NCBI RefSeq assembly: GCF_006345805.1
Contig: NC_043008.1
Span: 65,906,001 to 65,970,000 of the forward strand
Length of the DNA: 64,000 nucleotides
Source of the DNA: Octopus sinensis
Lineage: Eukaryota
Direction: 5' to 3'
The notes below the pieces were generated by a model. It was not told the origin of the DNA and did not search any database. It saw nothing but the letters and a program-made list of their open reading frames with translations. A program made the translations under genes and the position numbers. Below are positions 15,256 through 16,416 of this stretch, piece by piece; within the stretch, counting starts at the first letter, position 1; each line of letters begins with the position of its first letter.

Positions 15256-15314
<59 letters not shown>

Positions 15315-15563
15315 AAAATGGTATATGACTATTTAATTTTTTCCCACTAGGCCGCTGGTGGCAAAAAAATTCTACAAAATTTTTTGCCACCCTATATTGA
15401 TTAATTATGAATTTTCTGGTTAATTCCGTAATGGAATCGGCGGCTTATATTTATTTGCTGCCGATAAATTTGGCGCGAGTGCGATGATTTGAAAATTTTA
15501 GGTCAGATATTGCCGAGGCAGGGACGGGAATGCCTCGTGAAAAATATCTGTTCCGACTTGGCT

Positions 15564-15670
15564 ATTTCTTACTGATGAATCTAAGGGCCTATGGTAGATT
15601 GGCTTGATTTAATTTAATCAGGTTAGTTTACCATTAAACAGTAGACGAAACGGTGCATCGTATAAGAAAT
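15564..15670 (+). ncRNA. Type I hammerhead ribozyme, copy 1
   Basis: Stem I ATTTCTTA/TAAGAAAT; CTGATGA (15572-15578); stem II TCTA/TAGA plus a 19-bp extension; GAAA (15647-15650); stem III CGG-TGCA-TCG; GUA triplet, predicted cut after 15662. Confidence 0.88.
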
Positions 15671-16052
15671 TACAGGGTAAATGTTTTTTAATTTTCTCCT
15701 GGTTTACGGAATTGATGTTATTTTGCGGTTAAAGCTTTTGGCTGTTATTTCTAGTGGGTGAATGGCCTATTATGGCCGTTCCTTGATTGTGATGTTGAAC
15801 TTAAAAATGGTATATGACTATTTAATTTTTTCCCACTAGGCCGCTGGTGGCAAAAAAATTCTACAAAATTTTTTGCCACCCTATATTGATTAATTATGAA
15901 TTTTCTGGTTAATTCCGTAATGGAATCGGCGGCTTATATTTATTTGCTGCCGATAAATTTGGCGCGAGTGCGATGATTTGAAAATTTTAGGTCAGATATT
16001 GCCGAGGCAGGGACGGGAATGCCTCGTGAAAAATATCTGTTCCGACTTGGCT

Positions 16053-16157
16053 ATTTCTTACTGATGAATCTAGGGCCTATGGTAGATTGGCTTGATTTAT
16101 TTAATCAGGTTAGTTTACCATTAAACAGTAGACGAAACGGTGCATCGTATAAGAAAT
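16053..16157 (+). ncRNA. Type I hammerhead ribozyme, copy 2
   Basis: Same motif; predicted cut after 16149, 487 nt from the first site. Confidence 0.88.
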
Positions 16158-16378
16158 TACAGGGTAAATGTTTTTTAATTTTCTCCTGGTTTACGGAATT
16201 GATGTTATTTTGCGGTTAAAGCTTTTGGCTGTTATTTTTAGTGGGTGAATGGCCTATTATGGCCGTTCCTTGATTGTGATGTTGAACTTAAAAATGGTAT
16301 ATGACTATTTAATTTTTTCCCACTAGGCCGCTGGTGGCAAAAAAATTCTACAAAATTTTTTTGCCACCCTATATTGAT

Positions 16379-16416
<38 letters not shown>

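What the first reader, a model, noticed from the sequence alone, without database searches (positions are those of the whole stretch)
15313..16380. Tandem ~488-nt hammerhead repeat: candidate octopus retrozyme / circular-RNA retroelement
Seen: 2.2 head-to-tail, almost identical units (489 and 487 nt plus about 92 nt) in a (TA)n tract. Each full unit has one type I hammerhead: 8-bp stem I, CUGAUGA, GAAA, a short stem III and a GUA site. The predicted cuts after 15662 and 16149 would release an exact 487-nt monomer. Known: non-LTR retrozymes are tandem, non-coding, hammerhead-containing repeats that yield circular RNAs and are thought to be mobilised by Penelope-like elements. Inference: a non-integer multimer whose ends do not coincide with the cleavage site is what rolling reverse transcription of a circular RNA would leave. 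The unit seems long for an animal retrozyme as I recall the typical range, and I do not recognise the family. Near identity of the units implies a recent event.
Basis: partly seen in the sequence, partly recalled or inferred. Interest (0 to 1): 0.92.

Follow-up and report, generated by a model that had tools for sequence, protein, structure and literature searches.

The report
Two-armed hammerhead retrozyme insertions
This is one copy of a small non-coding parasite that carries a predicted self-cutting RNA motif; its insertions suggest that a Penelope-type enzyme copies one RNA, probably a circle, round and round from two fixed start points at once, which makes a suspected but unproven way of spreading directly testable.

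Summary
In detail: 489 + 487 + 93 nt head-to-tail units in (TA)n, each full unit with a type I hammerhead whose stems covary across the family. It is one copy of a large non-coding family (3,668 hammerhead cores genome-wide), a non-LTR retrozyme. The ends are not randomly permuted. Most insertions are two head-to-head arms whose 3' ends point out into (TA)n. One arm ends about 131 nt after the cleavage site (A), the other about 235 nt after it (B): 98 of 135 end-anchored and 22 of 31 hammerhead-anchored loci; never A+A or B+B. Both arms copy one template unit (0.74% apart, against 3.7% between loci), often for several passes, straight through the cleavage site. This is the Penelope-like inverted-arm-plus-tail signature, with a 104-nt tail instead of 30-40 nt. 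Best reading: a Penelope-like RT/GIY-YIG nicks both target strands, primes once at A and once at B on one RNA (a circle, about 0.6), and the arms join by microhomology. The window copy is the minority single-arm (B) form. Cleavage, circularity and the partner element are not shown.

The parts
15313..16382 (+). Whole insertion: one arm of 1,070 nt, from monomer position q140 to q232 (site B). No second arm is visible. q1 = 15663, the base after the first predicted cut.
15314..15802 (+). Repeat unit 1 (489 nt)
15803..16289 (+). Repeat unit 2 (487 nt)
16290..16382 (+). Partial third unit, ending at start site B
15564..15670 (+). Type I hammerhead 1: 8-bp stem I, core, long G.U-rich stem II, self-complementary stem III (15650-15661); predicted cut after 15662
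16053..16157 (+). Type I hammerhead 2; predicted cut after 16149
15663..16149 (+). Predicted cut-to-cut monomer, the candidate circular RNA
   Evidence: prediction only
15783..15793 (+). Start site A (q131), internal in this copy, preceded by TTGATT and a hairpin; the 3' end of one arm in most other copies. Repeated near 16270-16280.
16333..16382 (+). Strong hairpin (16333-16368), TTGATT (16374-16379) and start site B, used as this copy's 3' end
15125..15312 (.). Left (TA)n target tract; 15284-15311 is the left copy of a possible 28-bp target-site duplication
16381..16493 (.). Right (AT)n then (TATG)n tract; 16381-16408 is the right copy of the possible duplication

Best explanation
A non-autonomous, non-coding retrozyme that parasitises a Penelope-like element (PLE). 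(1) A tandem copy is transcribed (inferred). (2) Two neighbouring hammerheads pair through their self-complementary stem III and cut, releasing a monomer of about 489 nt (structure supported; cutting inferred). (3) A host ligase closes the monomer; alone it lacks a stem III partner and stays uncut (inferred from known retrozymes). (4) A PLE RT/GIY-YIG protein, probably a dimer, nicks both strands of a (TA)n tract. One 3'-OH starts reverse transcription at site A and the other at site B, 104 nt apart on the same RNA (the end pattern is shown; enzyme identity is inferred). (5) Each enzyme runs about 550 nt on average, sometimes more than ten units, through the cleavage junction (shown as arm lengths). 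(6) The two cDNA ends join by short microhomology, giving head-to-head arms (shown). If one priming fails or is trimmed away, a single arm remains, as in this window. Confidence by step: PLE-type twin priming at two fixed sites about 0.85; circular rather than linear template about 0.6.
For: 3,668 hammerhead cores, 467 exact A-end and 586 exact B-end junctions with (AT)n, reversed-pattern controls 0. End-anchored loci: 98 of 135 two-arm A+B and 6 more with a short B remnant. Hammerhead-anchored: 22 of 31 two-arm A+B, 3 with a short B remnant, 6 single. No A+A or B+B in either set. 170 of 196 outer flanks are TA-rich. 36 of 98 arm pairs cannot be fold-back copies of each other. A arm versus B arm of one locus 0.74% (43 loci), unit versus unit 0.75% (53 arms), different loci median 3.7%. 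16 of 76 multi-pass loci carry a rare substitution in every pass, 9 in both arms. 273 passes cross the cleavage site and 7 arms stop at q483-q5. Arm lengths correlate (rho 0.55; 0.39 without same-stop pairs). Hammerhead covariation: 50 double-change cells against 9.4 shuffled. Stem III duplex -17.5 kcal/mol as a dimer against -0.2 as a monomer hairpin. Young intact PLEs ending in (AT)n exist in the genome. A purified PLE cleaves and extends both strands and starts at two internal sites (PMC11167929).
Against: No autonomous partner was identified: no similarity of the unit to 40 GIY-YIG loci. Tandem DNA cannot by itself tell a circle from an uncut homogeneous multimer RNA. A few loci have more divergent arms (L032 3.6%, L020 2.9%, L033 2.1%), and L002 changes variant within an arm, so more than one template molecule is sometimes used. 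In vitro the anole PLE showed no difference in start site between strands and did not need hammerhead cleavage. Eight of nine Xenopus retrozyme dimers tested did not cleave. The first pair of stem II is unpaired in 36 of 82 sequences, this copy included. Only 16% of unit positions vary at all, so an invariant core alone is weak evidence.
Confidence: 0.7

Rival explanations
1. Same twin priming, but the template is a linear, uncut read-through transcript of an existing tandem array; no circle is involved.
For: It also gives seamless cleavage junctions. Hammerhead cleavage was not needed for PLE insertion in vitro (PMC11167929). Long donor arrays exist (about 21 units in the C22 locus).
Against: Arrays could then only shrink between generations, and a new mutation could not become fixed in every unit. 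Yet rare substitutions are fixed in all passes of 16 of 76 loci, up to 12 passes, and hammerhead stems are kept by compensatory changes. It would need concerted evolution in the donors.
Confidence: 0.2
2. The inverted arm arises by fold-back (self-priming) of one cDNA, as proposed for rotifer Penelope palindromes, with the second end set by cleavage.
For: In 28 of 98 pairs both arms stop at the same monomer position (8.0 expected by permutation), 23 of them as near-perfect palindromes offset by about 104 nt; some centre on short palindromes. Self-priming is discussed in PMC3846280.
Against: 36 of 98 pairs cannot be nested either way, and some arms share no sequence at all (L074, L080, L105). 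Two enzymes reaching the same break in one RNA give the same palindromes.
Confidence: 0.1
3. The unit is the pseudo-LTR of an ORF-bearing PLE that I did not sample; the arrays are its by-products.
For: Xenopus retrozymes resemble PLE pLTRs (10.64898/2026.07.22.740005). I read 178 loci out of roughly 1,100 or more, so a rare parent could be missed.
Against: None of 178 loci has an RT ORF running into the unit as a pLTR. The only direct contact (L056) has the unit fused to the middle of a PLE ORF. No short-stem-II hammerhead with the same stem III exists (0 matches). The PLEs examined have unrelated ends.
Confidence: 0.1
4. Monomers insert and the arrays grow afterwards by unequal crossover, like satellites.
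For: Proposed in 10.64898/2026.07.22.740005. It also homogenises units.
Against: Both arms are multi-unit, with non-integer lengths that correlate between arms (for example 1414/1374, 1376/1434, 899/912 nt). Independent later growth would erase that.
Confidence: 0.05

Closest known systems
Animal non-LTR retrozymes (coral, mussel, axolotl; Cervera and de la Pena 2020, PMC7229834; vertebrate survey 10.64898/2026.07.22.740005)
   Same: Low-GC, non-coding tandem repeats with one type I hammerhead per unit, dimers to long multimers, thousands of motifs per genome; dimeric hammerhead as reported for amphibians.
   Different: Monomer of about 489 nt; stem II of about 66 nt closed by A-U or a mismatch. 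Two inverted arms with two fixed 3' ends in (TA)n are not described in the parts of those papers I read ('inverted' 0 hits in the main text of PMC7229834; its supplement could not be read). Cleavage and circles were shown there and not here.
EN+ Penelope-like elements with the CX2-5CxxC linker (Neptune/Nematis type; PMC8557442) and Poseidon of Anolis (PMC11167929)
   Same: Partial tandems, inverted 5'-truncated arm, a 'tail' at one end only, (TA)n bias, hammerhead upstream of the 3' end, two internal RT start sites.
   Different: No ORF. The tail is about 104 nt, not 30-40. The two start sites are mutually exclusive between the two ends of an insertion. Arms are multimers of a short unit.
Non-autonomous Chlamys PLEs such as MRC1 (PMC8557442, passage)
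   Same: [quoted passage not shown]
   Different: Those resemble their autonomous partner at the 3' end and most Chlamys lack a hammerhead; here no partner similarity was found.
L1 twin priming (recalled, not from a call)
   Same: Both target strands prime; inverted arms joined by microhomology.
   Different: In L1 the second priming is at a variable internal site and arms do not overlap. Here both sites are fixed and the arms re-copy the same unit.

Membership tests
Non-LTR retrozyme | Type I hammerhead motif in every tandem unit | tested here: met
   Core and three stems present; core nearly invariant in 121-133 loci, N7 three-state, stems I and II covary. Rfam gave no hit. Nucleotide numbering is recalled.
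Non-LTR retrozyme | Short tandem repeats, dimers to multimers, dispersed in many copies | tested here: met
   3,668 cores; arms of up to about 14 units.
Non-LTR retrozyme | Non-coding, low GC, no LTR | tested here: met
   GC 36.6%; longest Met-ORF 66 aa round the circle. PBS and PPT were not searched for.
Non-LTR retrozyme | Monomer size | tested here: met
   About 489 nt: above 150-450 bp (PMC7229834), within 51-972 bp.
Non-LTR retrozyme | Self-cleavage of the RNA | not testable with these tools
   Only folding energies and covariation.
Non-LTR retrozyme | Monomer-length circular RNA in cells | not testable with these tools
   Only contigs of runs of uncertain kind were available.
Non-LTR retrozyme | Target-site duplication longer than 4 bp when present | tested here: inconclusive
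   Possible 28-bp duplication in the window; 7 of 96 loci with an interrupted duplication against 3.1 shuffled, maximum 6.
PLE-type insertion (works like) | Inverted 5'-truncated arm | tested here: met
   98 of 135 and 22 of 31 loci.
PLE-type insertion (works like) | Two 3' ends differing by a tail, present at one end only | tested here: met
   A at q125-137, B at q228-243; tail about 104 nt rather than 30-40.
PLE-type insertion (works like) | (TA)n target bias | tested here: met
   170 of 196 outer flanks; one end per locus was selected for it, but hammerhead-anchored loci show the same.
Autonomous PLE | Encodes RT and GIY-YIG endonuclease | tested here: not met
   No ORF in the unit; no PLE protein match in the window.
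pLTR array of a known autonomous PLE | Sequence similarity to the pLTR of an ORF-bearing PLE | tested here: not met
   No match in 40 GIY-YIG loci, out of 5,029 first-look candidates, so the sample is partial.

The most novel reading that the evidence does not exclude
These insertions are a genomic record of double rolling-circle target-primed reverse transcription: a PLE RT dimer loads on one small ribozyme-made circular RNA, with its two active sites bound to two different fixed start sites and two opposite target nicks, and both roll round the same circle together. That would explain the PLE 'tail at one end only' in general and show that retrozyme circles are the transposition intermediate. 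A second, unrelated 479-nt family in the same genome appears to follow the same rule.
Probability: 0.45. Interest if true: 0.8.

Novelty: new variant of a known kind. Interest (0 to 1): 0.62.

Why it matters
Two questions are open in the papers I read: whether animal retrozymes are really moved by Penelope-like elements through their RNA circles, and how PLEs make their inverted ends and one-sided tail. This family ties them together in more than a thousand young insertions of one short non-coding unit. It gives exact predictions: two start sites, one per target strand, on one RNA, with multi-pass products. The existing in vitro PLE assay could test these. It also supplies a 489-nt candidate natural circular RNA and a hammerhead variant, with a very long stem II, that Rfam models miss.

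Tried and rejected
Rfam scan: no hammerhead family, only chance microRNA matches on (TA)n. Expression: no RNA holder listed. Contigs of four runs guessed to be RNA cover nearly all of the unit, three with a wrap-around join at the same place, but tandem DNA gives the same, so this is no evidence either way. Partner search: the unit matches none of 40 GIY-YIG loci. Other elements ending in TTGATTTTGAT before (AT)n were mostly SINE-like, and none of 19 had a PLE ORF. No short-stem-II hammerhead shares this stem III. A family-wide target-site duplication test was weak. The sigma-70 promoter scan does not apply to an animal and was at chance level; the promoter is unknown. Random permutation of ends was rejected. 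Literature: 'octopus' + 'hammerhead ribozyme', 'retrozyme' + 'twin priming' (0 papers), 'cephalopod' + 'retrozyme' (only PMC8557442) and searches showed no description of this family. PMC13282606 has no mention of ribozyme, retrozyme or hammerhead. Subscription papers, Repbase/Dfam, the supplement of PMC7229834 and bioRxiv supplements were not seen and could list it. The summary line for 'core' positions was mis-indexed; I used the per-position table instead. The far end of the L056 chimera and more copies of the second family were not read.

Full report
Observation. Window 15313-16382 holds two near-identical units (489 and 487 nt; two 1-nt gaps, one substitution) and 93 nt of a third, between (TA)n tracts. 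Each full unit has a type I hammerhead with an 8-bp stem I, CUGAUGA, a long stem II, GAAA, a short stem III and GUA, predicting cuts after 15662 and 16149. Below, q is the position in the cut-to-cut monomer (q1 = 15663). Rfam does not detect the motif, probably because stem II is about 66 nt (inference).

The hammerhead looks selected. Taking one allele per locus, the core positions are invariant or nearly so (120-121 of 121; 130-132 of 132-133), while the free position N7 is T/C/A in 73/29/19 loci and the cleavage base is A or C (numbering recalled). In 82 distinct sequences 96% of cells pair, and 50 cells show changes on both sides against 9.4 +/- 2.6 shuffled. Four of 8 stem I pairs and 2 of 5 basal stem II pairs covary; the count of covarying pairs alone is not significant (35 of 500 shuffles), and the sequences are related. 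Stem III is a self-complementary 12-mer: -17.5 kcal/mol as a dimer, -0.2 as a hairpin, pair probability 0.02-0.05 in the circular monomer. One subfamily changes its loop to another palindrome. So cutting probably needs two hammerheads, which this copy has. The first stem II pair is A.C here and unpaired in 36 of 82 sequences, which may lower activity.

A large dispersed family. The monomer gave 234 matches from 39 of 1,104 candidates scored, those listed at 95-100% identity. A core-to-stem III pattern has 3,668 exact matches, control 0. At about 3.3 per cluster on the first 50 Mb of C1, that suggests roughly 1,100 or more insertions (estimate). Two junctions with (AT)n recur: site A at q131 (467 exact) and site B at q235 (586 exact), controls 0.

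Architecture. I fetched all listed A and B junctions on C1, all A junctions on C2, the first ten on C3 and the first 20 unpaired B junctions on C2. Two segmental duplicates were dropped and three loci with extra duplicated pieces were trimmed to one insertion, leaving 135. Of these, 98 are two arms, minus then plus, 3' ends outward, one ending at A and one at B. Six are an A arm plus a short B remnant, 16 are single arms, 5 have a second end elsewhere, 5 are complex and 5 run past the fetched stretch. None is A+A or B+B. Because one end was selected there, I also took the first 31 hammerhead clusters of C1: 22 two-arm A+B (one with its B end at the stretch edge, three with extra pieces), 3 A plus short B, 6 single, all ending at A or B. 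The unit has exactly three TTGATT (q121, q224, q430). They precede A, B and a rare third end at q440 seen in L007 and L061. The window copy is a single B arm starting at q140, with a possible 28-bp target duplication.

Two primings, one template. Minus-then-plus arms with outward 3' ends are what results if each target strand is nicked and extended (inference). In 36 of 98 pairs neither arm could be a fold-back copy of the other. Junctions overlap by 1 nt or more in 52 of 98 (BLAST ends, approximate). With homopolymers masked, units in an arm differ by 0.75% (53 arms), the two arms of a locus by 0.74% (43 loci), and arms of different loci by a median 3.7% (4,786 pairs); this used the first 97 loci and arms up to 3.2 kb. 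Exceptions are L032, L020 and L033. Rare substitutions are fixed in every pass in 16 of 76 multi-pass loci, in both arms in 9. Arm lengths correlate (rho 0.55). In 28 of 98 pairs both arms stop at the same q (8.0 by permutation), and 13 others are equal in length within 12% (6.4 expected, p 0.014). I read these as two enzymes meeting one RNA break, or stopping together.

Circle or line. Of 218 arms, 89 exceed one unit and 40 exceed two; one locus has about 14 plus 7 units. Arms cross the cleavage site 273 times and stop within q483-q5 seven times; 260 of 276 junctions caught by a pattern are the three exact subfamily forms (the pattern favours intact ones). The template is therefore continuous there. 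Fixation of new variants across whole arrays needs a monomer step, which favours a circle over read-through RNA. No usable RNA evidence was obtained.

The enzyme. The genome has many GIY-YIG loci. One young family has a 479-aa ORF and a 781-aa RT/GIY-YIG ORF, ends in (AT)n after a degenerate hammerhead-like motif, and shows a short extra tail in one of five copies aligned; a second has a 775-aa frame. Both carry the CX2-5CxxC linker that PMC8557442 links to Neptune/Nematis and (TA)n bias. Neither resembles the unit in sequence. One locus of 178, L056, joins q218-323 with a 2-nt microhomology and no TA spacer to the 3' half of the second family's ORF, opposite a normal A arm. That could be one co-insertion or a later nested insertion; it is a lead only.

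Comparison with print. PMC7229834 (abstract, passages, discussion, first third of results; supplement unreadable) defines animal non-LTR retrozymes, shows circles and proposes PLEs as candidate mobilisers. 10.64898/2026.07.22.740005 (parts 1-3 of 5; supplements closed) links them to pLTRs, reports 51-972 bp families and suggests local tandem growth. PMC8557442 and PMC3846280 (passages) describe inverted arms and a 30-40 bp tail at one end. PMC11167929 (parts 1-2 of 4) shows both strands cleaved and extended, two internal start sites that define the tail, and a predicted dimer, with no strand difference in start site. PMC13282606 (term search) mentions no ribozyme. My searches found no report of this family or of two-armed retrozyme insertions.

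Verdict. A real retrozyme by every sequence criterion I could test, working like a PLE insertion. The new points are the strict A-plus-B pairing, the 104-nt tail and multi-pass copying of one template in both arms. New variant of a known kind; interest 0.62.

Noticed in passing
L237-L248 (for example G000:C2:106101638-106102594); 403 exact hammerhead cores: A second, sequence-unrelated hammerhead repeat family with a 479-nt unit. Its 3' ends cluster about 155-164 and 242-252 nt into the unit as cut near the hammerhead, mostly in (TA)n, with two-arm copies in at least 4 of 12 loci.
   Followed up: partly
window 26050-26185 (-) and 159-241 (-): Old fragments (77% identity) of that second family lie in this window; a degenerate hammerhead-like motif sits near 26762 on the minus strand.
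   Followed up: no
L056:510-1268 (G000:C1:135495150-135498450): Direct fusion of retrozyme sequence to the 3' half of a PLE RT/GIY-YIG ORF within one two-armed structure.
   Followed up: partly
L141-L144, L148: Young intact two-ORF PLE family (479 aa plus 781 aa) whose hammerhead core is degenerate in all five copies aligned. L141 is flanked by a 1.15-kb direct repeat of host-like sequence.
   Followed up: partly
L013:500-1262: A retrozyme insertion sits in the short (AT)n tail of a PLE 3' fragment, consistent with a shared target.
   Followed up: no
L249-L261: SINE-like elements that also end in TTGATTTTGAT before (AT)n; whether they use the same enzyme is untested.
   Followed up: partly
L189, L205, L044-L046: Whole insertions duplicated in tandem with their TA spacer, or as part of larger segmental copies.
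   Followed up: no
window 17848-18658: A 388-bp tandem duplication (2.1 copies, 94%) of a GC-richer repeat with its (GT)n flank, 1.5 kb from the finding.
   Followed up: no
window 43278-43538: A 33-bp minisatellite, 7.9 copies at 98%.
   Followed up: no
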